10,146 bases of DNA from a virus. Lineage: Duplodnaviria > Heunggongvirae > Uroviricota > Caudoviricetes. The position numbers were made by a program. The first letter of the stretch is position 1; the number at the start of each line of letters is the position of its first letter. The DNA is taken from positions 1 to 10,146 of the IMG/VR virus record IMGVR_UViG_2541047850_000007; one strand, 5' to 3'. Positions 6,001 through 10,146 of the stretch are shown piece by piece.

Positions 6001-9000
6001 CAGGTAAGCCAGTGGACCGGACAGAACGGAGAAACGCGGCAGGGCTGGCAGGTTATCGCAGACAGCGTAATCAGTGCCCGCGCGGCACGTCCAGGCGGGA
6101 ACAGACGCAAAACCACAGGCACACAGGGTAATCAGCCACCAGCGGGAGGCGATGACCCTTACGGTGATGATATTTCGTTCTGAGGGGGTGACGATGGTAC
6201 ATGACCGCATAGCGGAGGAACTGGAGGCGAAAGGCTTTTACCGGAGGGCGGCGGCGCGATGGGGTGAAGTCATGCAGCTGGTGGAGACAGACAAGGAACG
6301 GCATCACATCACGATGCGACGGCTGGAATGTTCAAGGAAGGCACAGAGGGCACCGGAGCCGCCGGATAATTTCGGAGACCTGAAAAAGGCAGTCGATCGC
6401 ACTTATGCCGAAATGGGTATAGATGGTGCTGGTGATGAAATATGGCGCAATTACCAGGACAGCTAATCAAACAGCCGGAGAAATCCGGCTTTTTTTGCAC
6501 CAGTTGAAACGGTATGGCGCATTACCGGGTTTTCGTCACGGTCAGGCATAGTTACTATCTGAAACAAACAGACACAACAGAGGAAAAAAACAATGCCGAT
6601 GAAATTTGATGAGATATTAAAACAGCGTGATAAATACCATGCTGACAACATGGAGACGATGAGCATCAATGATTACCGCGCATTCCTGGAGACGGGCGCA
6701 CTGATTGAAAAGGATCAGCATGGTTTTGTGAGATGTGCTCTATCCGGTGAAATGCTGGCGGTAAATCCTGAACAGATAGATGCATTGATAGAATTTCTGA
6801 AAGAGATCAGAGACTGAGCCAGCACACAGCACACATAGCCGGAGCAATCCGGCTTTTTTGCGCCCAAAAAAAGCCCGATAAGGTCAGAGGGTTCTTATCG
6901 GGCTTTTGCATATGAGGTTTTTGGATGCACTGGCGTTCGTGATCGGGATAATCATTTCATAATTTGCAACATAACTCAATATCATTGCATAAAATGCAAT
7001 TCTGATTATAATCAGGACTGGATAAACATCCAGTTATGATTTTTTTAGTCGAAGAGGAATTTCTTACTATGGCTGAAGAGAAAAAAGGCGGTGTTTCGGT
7101 GTACATAAGCCCCGAAATCGTGGAGGTGCTCAAGCAGCGCCACAAAAAAAACTATGAAGCTGGCGTTGCGGCTGGACTGGATCCGCTGATGACGCCGGAG
7201 CCGTCGATAGGTTCACTTGTACGCTCTTATTTACTTGCGGCGCTTGGGATGCATAAAAATTATGGGGGTGAATAATGGCAGGCAAAGCAACGGCACTTAA
7301 CACTAACCAGCTTTTCATGTACCTGAATCGCGGGGATATTGCGGATTTTAAATTCAGCCCTCTGTTTACCACGCTGTTTTTCCCGAACGTGGCGACATTC
7401 AGCACGCAAAACATCATGCTGGATACCCTGGACATTGAAGAAGTCACCATGTCGGCGTTTTGTTCGCCTATGGTGGGTAGCCAGGTTCAGCGCGATAAAG
7501 GGTACGAAACCAGCACAATCAAACCTGGCTACATGAAGCCAAAGCACGAAATCGATCCAACGAAAACCATCATGCGCATGGCTGGAGAAGATCCGGCACA
7601 GCTTAACGACCCTACCTATCGCCGTATGCGCCTGATTACTGGCAACATGCGCCGCCAGATAAACGCCATTAAGGCACGCGTGGAATGGCTGGCGGTGAAT
7701 GCGGTAACGACCGGAAAAAACATCATTGAGGGCGAAGGCATAGAACGCTATGAAATCGACTGGAAAATACCGGAAAACTGCATCATAGAGCAGGCCAAGG
7801 GTAAAAAATGGTCCGAGCAGGATAAAGACATGCACGACCCAATCTATGACATCGAGCTTTATGCTGATCAGGCTGGTTGCCCCGCAAACGTCATGATTAT
7901 GGGCGCTGAGGTATGGCGCACATTACGCAGCTTTAAAAAATTCCGTGAGCTGTACGATCTTTCCCGTGGTTCAGAATCCGCCGCCGAACTGGCCTGTAAA
8001 AACCTGGGCGAAGTGGTGAGCTTTAAAGGCTATCTTGGTGATCTGGCCCTTATCGTCTATTCCGGCAAATACACTGACAGCGATGGTACCGAAAAATATT
8101 TCCTTGAGCCTGATTTGCTGGTCCTGGGTAACACCAACAATAAAGGGCTGGTGGCCTATGGTGCGATTATGGAACAGGAAGCGGTAAGAACGGGCGCAAC
8201 GCAAAACATGTTTTACCCGAAAAACTGGATTGAAGACGGCGATCCGGCGATTGAGTACGTGCAGACACACAGCGCACCGCAGCCTGTTCCGGCAGATATT
8301 CGCAAATTTGTTACCGTCAAAATTGGTTAACGGTGGATTCTATGAACACTCCATACATTGAGTTATTTGCAGGCAGTCAGCAGGTATCAACGACGCTGGT
8401 ACATTTTGCCGCTGATGCTGGCGTTATTCAGGAATTTACCCCGCTGATGCTGGCGGACAATGGCGAGTTTAAGCCGTGGGATGGTCAGGAATCTGGCAAG
8501 GCTGTTTATCTGACCTCGTACCCCGTTGACACGTCGACGCAGAAATCAGCACAGTGCTATAAGACGGGGATATTCAATATCGCCGCCGTTAACTGGCCTG
8601 AGAGCGTCGACACCGATGCGAAAAAATGCGCCGCCTTTGCGGGTTCTGGCGTATCCGTTCAGCCGCTGGCCCGATAAGCAGGGGGAACGATGGCAACGAA
8701 TGAAAGCATCATGGCGCTACCGCTGGCGAGTAAATTTAAAGCCGAAGCGCGGGCAATGGCTGACAGAGGGTTATCAACCTACGAGGCCGTATATCAACTC
8801 AACAAACTGGAAGAACAGGACAAGCCGCGCGCTGATGCGATTATGGCGCTTCATGAACATAACGACTATCAGCCGCTGTTACGTGCAATGGCAAACGTGC
8901 CATGTATTAGCGTCGATAATGCTCGTGAAATCCTGAACATGACCATAGAGCAGGAGCGCCCAAAGGTTGCACCAGAGCTTACCGCAGCCTTTGAAAACTT

Positions 9001-10146
9001 TATGGACATGCACAGCCCGCAAGCCGTATCAGCTGGCATGGCGTACGATGGCAGAAACCAGGGCGATGACGGCGACATCGATCGCATACTGAAAACCATC
9101 TGAGACAAGGCCGGAGAAATCCGGCTTTTTTTTACGGGTCCTTTCCGGCATATGGACCCGTTACGGGGCGGCGACCTCGCGGTTTTTCGCTATTTATGAG
9201 CCTTTTCAGGGGGGTGGTGGTGGTTTTGTTGTTTGCTCTATCTTTATGAATAAAAAGGGAAAGATGCAAGCAATACACCAACCTGAAGCAGTAATTAAGT
9301 TGGTGTATTAATGAAATCGCACCTGATGAACAAAAAAAACATGGCTAAAAGCTGCCGTGTAAGTGCGACAGCGTTCGACAAGTGGGGAGTAACTCCCGTT
9401 GAGCGTAAAGGCCGTGAGGCGTTTTATGATGTTGCCAGCGTGATAGACAATAGGGTTAACAATGCAATTAGCCAGCTTACAAACGACAAAGGCGATATTG
9501 ACGATGATGAACTATTACGAGTCAGGATCAGATTACTGACAGCGCAGGCGGAGGCGCAGGAGCTTAAAAACGAGCGCGAACGAGGCGACGTTATTGATAC
9601 AGGGTTTTGCCTGTACGCGCTTTCAAAGCTGGCGAGCCAGATTTCTTCAATCATGGACAGCATCCCGCTTACTATGCAAAGGAGCTTTCCACACATTACC
9701 CCAGCCATGCTGGATGGGCTTAAAAGGGAAGTGGTTAAAGCCTGTAATGCCAGTGCCAGAGTTGCCGACAACCTCCCACAGATACTGGCTGATTACTTGA
9801 AAGAAACAACCGGAAACGTACCGGAAAAGTTGCAGCAGAATAAAGATAAGTAACGTAGTACGCTATGACTGAATCCGAAATACTGCGATTAATCCGCCGC
9901 GTCTCTGGAATCAGCCAGCAGGCTGACGAACAGACCACGCAGCCGGACAGCGTGACAGCCGAAAACTATGCGCGTGTGGTTGCTGAGGTGATGCGCCGTG
10001 ATGGTATCCAGCTTAATGATGTGGATATGCGCGACATACGGATCCGCGTTCTTGAAATGCTGGCCTACAATCGCCGCGTTGAGATGTATCGGGAGAAAGA
10101 AAAAATAACGTACCACTGGAAGAAGCCGGAGCGGTTACGGCGGTAA

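What the first reader, a model, noticed from the sequence alone, without database searches (positions are those of the whole stretch)
6473..9133. Same terminator hairpin used three times to separate modules
GCCGGAG(A/C)AATCCGGC followed by a T-run occurs at 6473-6496, 6837-6859 and 9109-9133, with a GNRA-like loop each time. Copies 1 and 2 bracket the 74-aa ORF. Copy 3 closes the head operon just before cos. Reuse of an identical hairpin rather than unrelated terminators suggests duplication or a shared function beyond termination, such as a processing site or a target for helper-induced antitermination controlling read-through into the head and packaging genes.
Basis: seen in the sequence. 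Interest (0 to 1): 0.5.

Follow-up and report, generated by a model that had tools for sequence, protein, structure and literature searches.

The report
Reused terminator hairpin at satellite module junctions
The three hairpins are copies of one ordinary-looking transcription terminator that this family of E. coli phage satellites places after each gene block, and related islands gain, lose or swap gene blocks exactly at these copies.

Summary
GCCGGAG(A/C)AATCCGGC plus 6-8 T occurs three times on the + strand (cores 6474-6489, 6838-6853, 9110-9125), with none expected by chance. The window is an EcCICFT073-type phage-inducible chromosomal island (PICI) of E. coli. Each copy lies 6-20 nt after a stop codon (perC, orf74, orf137), in sense orientation, and folds as a 7-9 bp GC stem with a GNRA loop and a U-tail. 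This is a textbook Rho-independent terminator.

The copies are homologous, forming a ~28-nt repeat. In 80 islands chosen by capsid protein, not by hairpin, there are 170 instances. The stem is almost invariant and variation sits at loop position 2. In the hairpin-selected set the unit follows five gene families and precedes 16 downstream sequence classes. Homology between islands breaks at its T-run. The orf74 cassette is present or absent by exactly one hairpin-to-hairpin unit.

It is not REP-like: at most 6 places per E. coli genome, and every one inspected lies in a PICI. Helper-type lambdoid phages lack it upstream of cos.

I found no support for a processing or antitermination role, though neither is excluded. 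Best reading: a family-specific terminator and insulator that also serves as a short homology patch for module exchange. Interest is modest.

The parts
6473..6496 (+). Hairpin copy 1: A-GCCGGA-GAAA-TCCGGC-T stem-loop plus 7 T. It lies 7 nt after the perC (pchE-like) stop codon at 6464-6466.
6837..6859 (+). Hairpin copy 2: the same stem with a GCAA loop, plus 6 T. It lies 20 nt after the orf74 stop codon at 6815-6817.
9107..9133 (+). Hairpin copy 3: the stem is extended to 9 bp (AAGGCCGGA...TCCGGCTTT), with a GAAA loop and 8 T. It lies 6 nt after the orf137 stop codon at 9101-9103.
6468..6495 (+). The 28-nt homologous repeat unit: CA-rich leader, hairpin and T-run. The other two copies are at 6832-6859 and 9104-9131.
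   Evidence: family D2: 89% and 86% identity to the reference copy
6194..6466 (+). perC / pchE-like regulator gene, last gene of the early (replication) block. It is terminated by copy 1.
6497..6836 (+). orf74 cassette (leader plus ORF 6593-6817, phrog_1957, function unknown) lying between copies 1 and 2. It is present or absent in related islands by exactly one hairpin-to-hairpin unit.
6866..6911 (.). A second, stronger bidirectional terminator (AAAAAAAGCCCGATAAG...CTTATCGGGCTTTT) in tandem with copy 2. It is conserved in front of the capsid operon in 77 of 80 capsid-selected loci.
   Evidence: (I23)
7036..9103 (+). Head-gene operon: orf79, gpE-like major capsid (7275-8330), gpD-like decoration (8333-8677) and orf137 (8690-9103, Nu3/C-terminal gpC-like). 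It is closed by copy 3.
9134..9179 (+). Lambda-like cosQ (GGGTCCT, 9136-9142) and cosN (GGGCGGCGACCT, 9166-9177). Homology to lambdoid phages begins at 9129-9135, immediately after copy 3.
9311..9853 (+). Nu1-like small-terminase homologue (Rpp-type) downstream of cos. Copy 3 insulates it from head-operon transcription.
   Evidence: PMC6739421

Best explanation
The three hairpins are copies of one family-specific Rho-independent terminator used by E. coli phage-inducible chromosomal islands (PICIs). As RNA, each forms a 7-9 bp GC stem with a GNRA tetraloop and a 6-8 U tail a few nucleotides after the last stop codon of a gene block. Copy 1 should end the early/replication block (alpA ... pri-ssb-perC). 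Copy 2, backed by a second strong terminator, should end the orf74 accessory cassette and insulate the head operon. Copy 3 should end the head operon, so that RNA polymerase does not run into cos and the rpp (Nu1-like) gene. The same ~28-bp unit (CA-rich leader, hairpin, T-run) sits at every such boundary. It therefore also acts as a short patch of homology, at which gene blocks are duplicated, deleted and swapped between islands. The swapped blocks include perC variants, orf74, a second cos site, and gpE-type versus HK97-type packaging modules. That history is why the terminators are identical rather than unrelated. Shown here: the anatomy, orientation, position after stop codons, conservation pattern, restriction to PICIs, and breakpoints at the hairpin. 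Inferred: that termination actually occurs in vivo, and that recombination within the repeat generates the junctions, as opposed to selection after illegitimate joining.
For: Terminator anatomy and stable folding, with no competitor structure. All 135 instances in 91 PICI loci are in gene-sense orientation, with the stop codon 5-23 nt upstream. The upstream genes fall into five families: orf137, SSB, PerC, orf74 and orf81-like. There are 12 upstream and 16 downstream flank classes, found in 32 combinations.

In the set not selected by hairpin (80 loci fetched by capsid protein), hairpin 3 is invariant in every locus that contains the region. Meanwhile the spacer, T-run length (6-9), cosQ flank, cosN and cosB all vary. 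At least 8 different upstream 3' ends are followed by the same hairpin before the capsid-operon terminator. Among 170 instances, only 6 carry a stem change. Three of these (two variant types) are G.U-preserving and three (one variant type) are disruptive. The loops are about 93 GAAA, 52 GCAA, 10 GTAA, 7 GAAAA and 5 GAAG. Variation is therefore concentrated at the N of GNRA, as expected for an RNA hairpin under selection.

Homology breakpoints fall at the hairpins. BLAST hits to 6190-7280 end at window 6494 or 6858, or start at 6867. Of 525 HSP endpoints, 62 lie within 15 nt of the hairpins, which cover 1.6% of the window. The alignment shows that L003 equals L002 minus exactly one hairpin-to-hairpin unit. 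It also shows the window and L002 diverging right after the T-run of copy 2. Lambdoid phages share cosQ/cosN but not the hairpin.
Against: There are no transcript-end data, so termination is predicted rather than observed. The Sakai Term-seq paper has no supplement held in the library. There are no compensatory double substitutions in the stem, so there is no covariation proof of structure. The near-invariant stem sequence could also mean sequence-specific recognition by a factor. No clear sigma-70 promoter is seen between copy 1 and orf74. orf74 may therefore depend on read-through of copy 1, which would imply leaky or regulated termination. The breakpoint statistics use related, non-independent islands, and part of the data set was selected for carrying the hairpin. 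Other mosaic junctions without the hairpin are equally frequent, for example at 3780-3799, 5560-5579 and 9860-9879. Cassettes that each carry their own terminator, joined by illegitimate recombination and retained by selection, would give a similar picture.
Confidence: 0.7

Rival explanations
1. The hairpins are conditional terminators. On helper induction, a helper factor (N- or Q-like) or an island factor lets RNA polymerase read through them, giving one long transcript from the alpA promoter into the head and packaging genes. The conserved GNRA hairpin is the recognised signal, in the manner of boxB.
For: All island genes from alpA onward are co-directional. AlpA is the helper-induced master activator and is known to activate its own promoter (PMC6092414). 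The stem sequence is conserved at sequence level without covariation. The loops are GNRA, and rare variants include GAAAA, the lambda nutR boxB loop (the boxB sequence is from my own knowledge). No obvious promoter was found for orf74.
Against: There is no boxA next to any copy, and matches are at chance level. There is no ops site. No alternative fold is predicted. nut sites lie upstream of terminators and lack a U-tail, whereas these are terminators themselves. The island AlpA (69 aa, PF05930) is not related to the Pseudomonas antiterminator AlpA, which has an 8-helix 21Q-like fold. A separate promoter-like region with operator-like palindromes precedes the head operon, so read-through is not required. 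GNRA loops are common in ordinary terminators. Known antiterminators do not depend on terminator sequence (PMC7969949), so they would not explain sequence conservation.
Confidence: 0.12
2. The hairpin and T-run are part of the island's packaging signal at the DNA level. They would act as an accessory element of cos, for example a bend or a block that keeps cosQ/cosN free of transcribing polymerase.
For: About half of all instances (72 of 135) are followed directly by a cosQ-like GGGTCCT: flank classes D0, D5, D6, D7, D12 and D15, plus the degenerate D4. In relatives with two cos sites, both sites are immediately preceded by the hairpin (two cos sites are reported in PMC6739421). Hairpin 3 is invariant while the rest of the cos region varies.
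Against: Copies 1 and 2 in this window, and many others elsewhere, are not next to any cos. Helper phages that use the same cosQ/cosN have no hairpin there. Orientation always follows gene sense and distance from a stop codon, which is an RNA-level logic.
Confidence: 0.08
3. The three copies are independent, convergent terminators that happen to share a favoured stem and loop. On this view there is no common origin and no role in recombination.
For: The exact 20-mer GCCGGAG(A/C)AATCCGGCTTTT occurs as single copies in more than 120 genomes of unrelated phyla and in 33 unrelated viral contigs, against about 2 expected at random. None of these carries PICI genes. The sequence itself is therefore a recurrent terminator design.
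Against: Similarity extends beyond the hairpin into a 28-nt repeat. Three copies in 10 kb are never seen in shuffles. The same unit marks at least 32 flank combinations within one island family. The cassette indel is exactly one repeat unit.
Confidence: 0.03
4. The hairpins are the 3' modules of Hfq-binding small RNAs derived from the 3' UTRs of perC, orf74 and orf137. The CA-rich leader would act as the seed.
For: There is a terminator hairpin with 7-8 U and a conserved CA-rich, G-poor stretch just upstream in nearly all flank classes. EHEC horizontally acquired regions are known to be rich in sRNAs (PMC7547250).
Against: There is no Rfam hit. The leaders differ in sequence between classes. 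No expression data are available. The U-tail and hairpin are fully explained by termination.
Confidence: 0.04

Closest known systems
Rho-independent (intrinsic) terminators of E. coli and its phages, e.g. lambda tR'
   Same: GC-rich stem of 7-9 bp, a stable GNRA tetraloop and a 6-8 U tail. They lie a few nucleotides after a stop codon on the sense strand.
   Different: Ordinary genomes use unrelated sequences at different gene ends. Here one sequence is reused at essentially every block boundary of the right half of a whole family of mobile elements.
Moron cassettes of lambdoid phages (promoter-gene-terminator units inserted between modules; own knowledge: Juhala et al. 2000, Hendrix et al. 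2000)
   Same: orf74, and in other islands perC, is a small accessory gene with a terminator at its 3' end. It is present or absent between otherwise conserved modules.
   Different: No convincing promoter of its own was found. The cassette is flanked on both sides by the same terminator, so the indel equals one direct-repeat unit.
Linker or boundary homology sequences in the modular theory of phage evolution (own knowledge: Susskind and Botstein 1978; conserved boundary sequences in lambdoid phages)
   Same: A short conserved sequence sits between exchangeable modules, and homology breakpoints coincide with it.
   Different: Here the linker is itself a functional terminator of about 28 bp. 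It occurs in satellites rather than phages, and it joins classical (gpE/gpD/Rpp) and capsid-forming (HK97-type) PICI packaging modules to a common left half.
Lambda nut boxB hairpin
   Same: A short GC stem capped by a GNRA-type loop. The rare island variants have the GAAAA pentaloop.
   Different: The stem sequence differs, and the loop is a tetraloop rather than a pentaloop in more than 95% of copies. The hairpin is followed by a U-tail, has no boxA, and sits at gene ends rather than promoter-proximally.
REP/BIME palindromes of E. coli
   Same: A short GC-rich palindrome repeated in intergenic DNA.
   Different: REP elements occur in hundreds of copies across the core chromosome. This hairpin has 0-6 copies per genome, and every copy inspected lies in a PICI.

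Membership tests
Rho-independent terminator | GC-rich stem-loop (5-14 bp, loop of 3-8 nt) that forms stably in the transcript | tested here: met
   Stems of 7-9 bp with 5 GC pairs and a 4-nt loop. Folding energies of -14 to -18 kcal/mol with z-scores of -3.4 to -4.4. The hairpin still forms with 120 nt of upstream context.
Rho-independent terminator | Uninterrupted U-tract directly 3' of the stem | tested here: met
   7, 6 and 8 T in the window. Mostly 5-9 T in related islands, with 4 T in one small flank class.
Rho-independent terminator | Sense orientation just downstream of a stop codon, at the end of a transcription unit | tested here: met
   All 135 instances are in gene-sense orientation. 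The stop-to-hairpin spacer is 5-23 nt.
Rho-independent terminator | RNA 3' ends map to the U-tract, and downstream expression drops | not testable with these tools
   No Term-seq or reporter data could be retrieved.
Rho-independent terminator | Evolutionary pattern of an RNA hairpin: paired positions conserved or compensated, free loop position variable | tested here: inconclusive
   Variation is concentrated at loop position 2. Two of the three stem-variant types (3 of 6 instances) are G.U-preserving and one type (3 instances) is disruptive. There are no double compensatory changes.
REP-like dispersed chromosomal palindrome | Many copies scattered through the core chromosome of the host | tested here: not met
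   934 of 5426 genomes have a match, with a median of 1 and a maximum of 6 places per genome. The inspected places all lie in PICIs. The 16 kb of chromosome flanking the island in L001 has none.
Lambda-type nut site (N utilisation) | boxA (CGCTCTTA-like) a few nucleotides upstream of a boxB hairpin, promoter-proximal, with no U-tail | tested here: not met
   The 4 boxA-like matches are at chance level, and none lies upstream of a hairpin. Every copy carries a U-tail and sits at a gene end.
RfaH ops-dependent antitermination | An ops element (GGCGGTAGnnTG) in the transcribed leader | tested here: not met
   0 matches with 1 mismatch allowed.
Q-like AlpA antitermination (Pseudomonas aeruginosa type) | A regulator with the 21Q-like multi-helix fold that loads on RNA polymerase | tested here: not met
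   The island AlpA is 69 aa and belongs to PF05930 (E = 1.8e-17). Its only significant PDB match at E <= 1 is 8c3t, an 'AlpA family phage regulatory protein', and none of the listed matches is an antiterminator AlpA chain. The Pseudomonas protein has 8 helices and a 21Q-like fold (PMC9371919).
Moron-type accessory cassette | A small gene with its own terminator, present or absent between conserved modules | tested here: met
   orf74 with copy 2. Islands occur with perC-hairpin-orf74-hairpin or with perC-hairpin only, in both gpE-type and HK97-type backgrounds.
Moron-type accessory cassette | Its own promoter upstream of the gene | tested here: inconclusive
   There is no promoter-scan hit between 6497 and 6592. 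Only weak hexamers are visible by eye.
Integron attC gene cassette | A 57-141 bp imperfect palindrome with core sites, recombined by an IntI integrase | tested here: not met
   The element is a 16-nt perfect hairpin plus a T-run. The only recombinase is a P4-type tyrosine integrase with an arm-binding domain.
EcCICFT073-type Gram-negative PICI (the element that carries the hairpins) | int, alpA, D5-type pri-rep followed by ori iterons, capsid and decoration homologues, a lambda-like cos with its own cosB, and a Nu1-like Rpp; about 10-11 kb, integrated at a non-prophage site | tested here: met
   Pfam hits. Iterons at 5242-5480. Insertion between cspD/yljB and clpS in a 98.6%-identical genome. 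cos region. Published description in PMC6092414 and PMC6739421. Helper-dependent mobilisation was not tested.

The most novel reading that the evidence does not exclude
The near-invariant stem sequence is conserved because the hairpin is a specific signal, not just any terminator. One version is a boxB-like RNA recognised by a helper-phage or island factor, so that helper induction switches the three terminators off and couples early, head and packaging expression. The other is a cos-proximal element needed for satellite-specific packaging, since it directly precedes both cos sites in two-cos islands and is absent from the helpers' cos.
Probability: 0.12. Interest if true: 0.7.

Novelty: new member of a known kind. 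Interest (0 to 1): 0.35.

Why it matters
PICIs are abundant in E. coli: parts of this island match 2,284 of 5,426 complete genomes. They also carry virulence regulators such as PchE. How their left (integration/replication) halves come to be combined with very different packaging modules has not been explained. The alternatives include gpE/gpD/Rpp-type versus complete HK97-type capsid-forming modules. A single ~28-bp terminator unit sitting at every boundary, with homology breaking exactly there, offers a concrete and testable route for that module shuffling. It also defines the transcription units of these islands, which the PICI papers I could read do not describe. For engineering PICIs as delivery vehicles, it flags direct repeats that can delete cargo placed between them. 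If the hairpin turned out to be a regulated or packaging-related signal, it would add a new control point in satellite-helper interplay.

Tried and rejected
1. REP-like dispersed element: rejected.

2. AlpA as a processive antiterminator, by analogy with P. aeruginosa AlpA: rejected as a homology argument. The two proteins share only a name.

3. nut/boxA and ops loading sites: not found.

4. Riboswitch- or attenuator-like alternative folds: none predicted.

5. Known RNA families: the Rfam scan of the whole window gave only a chance miRNA match in the ori palindromes.

6. Origin of the hairpin in helper phages: lambdoid phage homology starts just after the hairpin, and HK629 and PhiR12_1 have no hairpin there. 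The orf74 cassette has no match in 50,697 phage records.

7. Covariation test in distant relatives: not possible. orf137 homologues are restricted to E. coli and are, apart from a few shorter ~93-aa proteins at 61-67%, at least 79% identical. The capsid-based search also returned only relatives that were 93-100% identical.

8. Experimental 3' ends: the EHEC Sakai Term-seq paper has no supplementary tables held in the library. No paper in the library contains the hairpin sequence.

It showed only that the 20-mer is a recurrent terminator design, and gave no information on other enterobacteria.

10. Whether the loop variant travels with the left or the right flank: uninformative, since the conditional entropies are equal.

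11. CRISPR-like or integron attC readings: rejected on spacing, size and absence of the cognate enzymes.
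Full report
**Observation.** The motif GCCGGAG(A/C)AATCCGGC occurs exactly three times in the 10,146-nt window. All three are on the + strand, at 6474-6489, 6838-6853 and 9110-9125. No match appeared in any of 200 dinucleotide-preserving shuffles, even with two mismatches allowed. Each copy is followed by a T-run of 7, 6 and 8 T respectively. Copies 1 and 3 are identical, and copy 2 differs only at loop position 2 (GCAA instead of GAAA). The similarity extends beyond the palindrome. The repeat finder returns one 28-nt direct-repeat family at 6468-6495, 6832-6859 and 9104-9131. 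All three copies are called by the terminator scan. They fold at -14 to -18 kcal/mol, well below shuffled controls. They remain the dominant local structure when 120 nt of upstream RNA is included, with no competing fold.

**What the window is.** The window is 98.6% identical to a ~10-kb insertion between cspD/yljB and clpS in E. coli 23CRST038. It encodes the following, in order:
- a P4-type tyrosine integrase
- a 69-aa AlpA (PF05930)
- a D5-type primase-helicase, followed by an iteron field
- SSB
- a PerC/PchE-type regulator
- a 74-aa ORF
- orf79
- a lambda gpE-like capsid protein and a gpD-like decoration protein
- a 137-aa ORF
- a lambda-like cosQ/cosN
- a Nu1-like small-terminase homologue

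These assignments rest. This is the published organisation of EcCICFT073-type Gram-negative phage-inducible chromosomal islands, including the capsid (c1499) and decoration (c1500) homologues and the Rpp protein next to cos (PMC6092414, PMC6739421). Neither paper, nor the preprint on capsid-forming PICIs (cf-PICIs), mentions a terminator. No paper in the library contains the hairpin sequence.

**Anatomy relative to genes.** Copy 1 begins 7 nt after the perC stop codon. Copy 2 begins 20 nt after the orf74 stop codon. Copy 3 begins 6 nt after the orf137 stop codon, and its T-run ends 2 nt before a lambda-like cosQ (GGGTCCT, 9136-9142) and cosN (GGGCGGCGACCT, 9166-9177). Copy 2 is followed within 7 nt by a second, stronger bidirectional terminator (6866-6911). 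After that comes a promoter-like region with operator-like palindromes in front of orf79. All genes from alpA onward are on the + strand.

**Is it scattered through the host genome?** It is not. A 32-nt BLAST with copy 1 against 5,426 complete E. coli genomes found matches in 934 genomes. The median was 1 and the maximum 6 places per genome. This is a lower bound for loop variants. Every place I inspected lies inside a PICI. These were three intergenic hits in Nissle 1917, PA45B and 2014C-3097, which are copy-3 equivalents of islands at other attachment sites. The others were the Sakai 'prophage Sp7' and loci L001-L004. The 16 kb of chromosome flanking the island in L001 has no copy.

**Is the sequence itself special?** It is not. 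The exact 20-mer, including four T, occurs as single copies in more than 120 genomes of unrelated phyla. It also occurs in 33 viral contigs unrelated to the island, against about two expected at random. These loci have no PICI genes. A 6-bp GC stem with a GNRA loop and a U-tail is simply a recurrent terminator design. What needs explaining is the reuse within one element family, not the sequence.

**Distribution within the island family.** The viral-contig scan returned 87 island-related loci. Together with the window and three E. coli loci, they contain 135 hairpins, all in gene-sense orientation. The hairpins follow the 3' ends of five gene families: orf137, SSB, PerC, orf74 and an orf81-like gene. 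Spacers are 5-23 nt. I found 12 upstream and 16 downstream flank classes, in 32 combinations.

To avoid selecting on the hairpin, I fetched 80 loci by the capsid protein. In every locus containing the region, the copy-3 16-mer is invariant. Meanwhile the spacer, the T-run length (6-9), the cosQ flank, cosN and cosB all vary. Upstream of the capsid-operon terminator, at least eight different gene ends are each followed by the same hairpin. A fuzzy search in this set found 170 instances. The loops are about 93 GAAA, 52 GCAA, 10 GTAA, 7 GAAAA and 5 GAAG. Only six instances carry a stem change: two variant types preserve pairing as G.U and one is disruptive. Variation is thus concentrated at the one position that a GNRA tetraloop leaves free. 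That fits selection on an RNA hairpin, but there are no double compensatory changes, so it is not covariation proof.

**Module junctions.** BLAST of 6190-7280 against E. coli genomes gave partial hits that end at window 6494 (the end of copy 1's T-run) or at 6858 (the end of copy 2's T-run), or that begin at 6867. The partners include capsid-forming PICIs of the EcCIEDL933 type. These share the left half up to the hairpin and then carry an HK97-type capsid, protease, portal and terminase module.

Three alignments make the point:
- L002 has perC-hairpin(GAAA)-orf74-hairpin(GCAA)-HK97 module.
- L003 has perC-hairpin(GCAA)-HK97 module. It differs from L002 by exactly one hairpin-to-hairpin unit.
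- The window and L002 are collinear through copy 2 and diverge immediately after its T-run.

The same presence or absence of orf74 is seen in gpE-type islands. Across 90 related loci, 62 of 525 internal HSP endpoints fall within 15 nt of the three hairpins, which cover 1.6% of the window. This enrichment is real, but the loci are related and partly hairpin-selected. Other junctions without the hairpin are equally common.

**Relation to cos.** About half of all instances are followed directly by a cosQ-like sequence. EcCICFT073-type relatives such as NCTC86 have a second cos-like site right after the SSB hairpin. Both of their cos sites are therefore preceded by the hairpin. This is consistent with the two cos sites reported for EcCICFT073. 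The window itself has only one cosQ-like site. Lambdoid phage homology to the cos region starts at 9129-9135, just after the hairpin. HK629 and PhiR12_1 have no hairpin upstream of cosQ. The hairpin is thus an island feature, not one inherited from the helper.

**Tests of the 'beyond termination' ideas.**
- I found no ops element.
- boxA-like matches are at chance level and not adjacent to the hairpins.
- There is no Rfam family.
- No alternative fold is predicted.
- The tempting link to the Pseudomonas antiterminator AlpA fails. The island AlpA is a 69-aa PF05930 protein whose only significant PDB relative is 8c3t. The Pseudomonas protein is a larger, 21Q-like eight-helix protein.

These results do not exclude regulated read-through. 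orf74 lacks an obvious promoter, and the stem is conserved at sequence level. But nothing positive supports regulated read-through either.

**Conclusion.** The best-supported reading (confidence about 0.7) is a family-specific intrinsic terminator that closes three units: the early block, the orf74 cassette and the head operon. The last of these insulates cos and rpp. Its reuse reflects, and promotes, recombination between islands at a ~28-bp shared unit. Termination in vivo and recombination within the repeat are inferences. Anatomy, orientation, conservation, PICI restriction and breakpoint coincidence are shown. The rivals and their confidences are:
- helper- or island-dependent antitermination: 0.12
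- a DNA-level role in cos function: 0.08
- a 3'-UTR sRNA module: 0.04
- pure convergence: 0.03

The feature is a new, undescribed member of a well-known kind. It is modestly interesting as a concrete 'linker' for satellite module shuffling, and as a map of PICI transcription units.

Noticed in passing
window 8690-9103: orf137, annotated elsewhere as 'head-tail connector', matches phrog_1999. It also matches the C-terminal part (positions 494-567 of 583) of the head-maturation-protease family phrog_53. This resembles the lambda C/Nu3 scaffold region, so the island may carry an E-, D- and Nu3-like trio. Its homologues are restricted to E. coli.
   Followed up: partly
window 6984-7045: Several elements lie upstream of orf79 and the capsid operon. 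There is a perfect palindrome ATTGCAT-AAA-ATGCAAT (6984-7000) overlapping a -35-like TTGCAT. A palindromic TGATTATAATCA (7003-7014) contains a consensus TATAAT. A weak hairpin plus T-run follows at 7016-7045. Together they look like a regulated late promoter with an operator.
   Followed up: partly
window 6866-6911: A strong bidirectional terminator (A7-GCCCGATAAG...CTTATCGGGC-T4) sits in tandem with hairpin copy 2. It is conserved in front of the capsid operon in 77 of 80 capsid-selected loci, whatever lies upstream.
   Followed up: partly
L004 5804-5880 (NCTC86), compared with window 6184-6860: Relatives have a second cos-like site (ACGGGTCCTCCTGG...GGGGCGGGAGGCG) directly after the SSB hairpin, in roughly the position where the window has perC and orf74. 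The window has a single cosQ-like site.
   Followed up: partly
window 5242-5480: A dense field of GGTGAACAG iterons and long inverted repeats lies immediately after the primase gene. It is the expected PICI replication origin. An Rfam 'miRNA' hit here is a chance match to the palindromes.
   Followed up: no
window 6194-6466; L325 6726-6998 (Sakai ECs1588): The PerC-family gene terminated by copy 1 corresponds to pchE of E. coli O157:H7 Sakai. pchE is reported to regulate curli, flagella and adhesion. The same gene-plus-hairpin unit is shared between classical and capsid-forming PICIs.
   Followed up: partly
window 9126-9133 and equivalents in L245-L321: The T-run of copy 3 varies from 6 to 9 T among otherwise near-identical islands. 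This shifts the hairpin-to-cosQ distance by up to 3 nt.
   Followed up: no
window 6566-6592: The leader of orf74 is A/C-rich, G-poor and rich in ARN-type triplets (AACAGACACAACAGAGGAAAAAAACA). An in-frame upstream ATG at 6523 would extend the ORF to about 98 aa.
   Followed up: no
window 1886-1905: A GC-rich palindrome (GGCGACCGGGGGCGGTCGCC) lies just after alpA, inside the start of the 313-aa ORF. The scan scores it as the best terminator-like site on the minus strand.
   Followed up: no
window 1649-1858: The island's AlpA (69 aa, PF05930) and the Pseudomonas aeruginosa antiterminator AlpA share a name but not size or fold. Literature on one should not be transferred to the other.
   Followed up: yes
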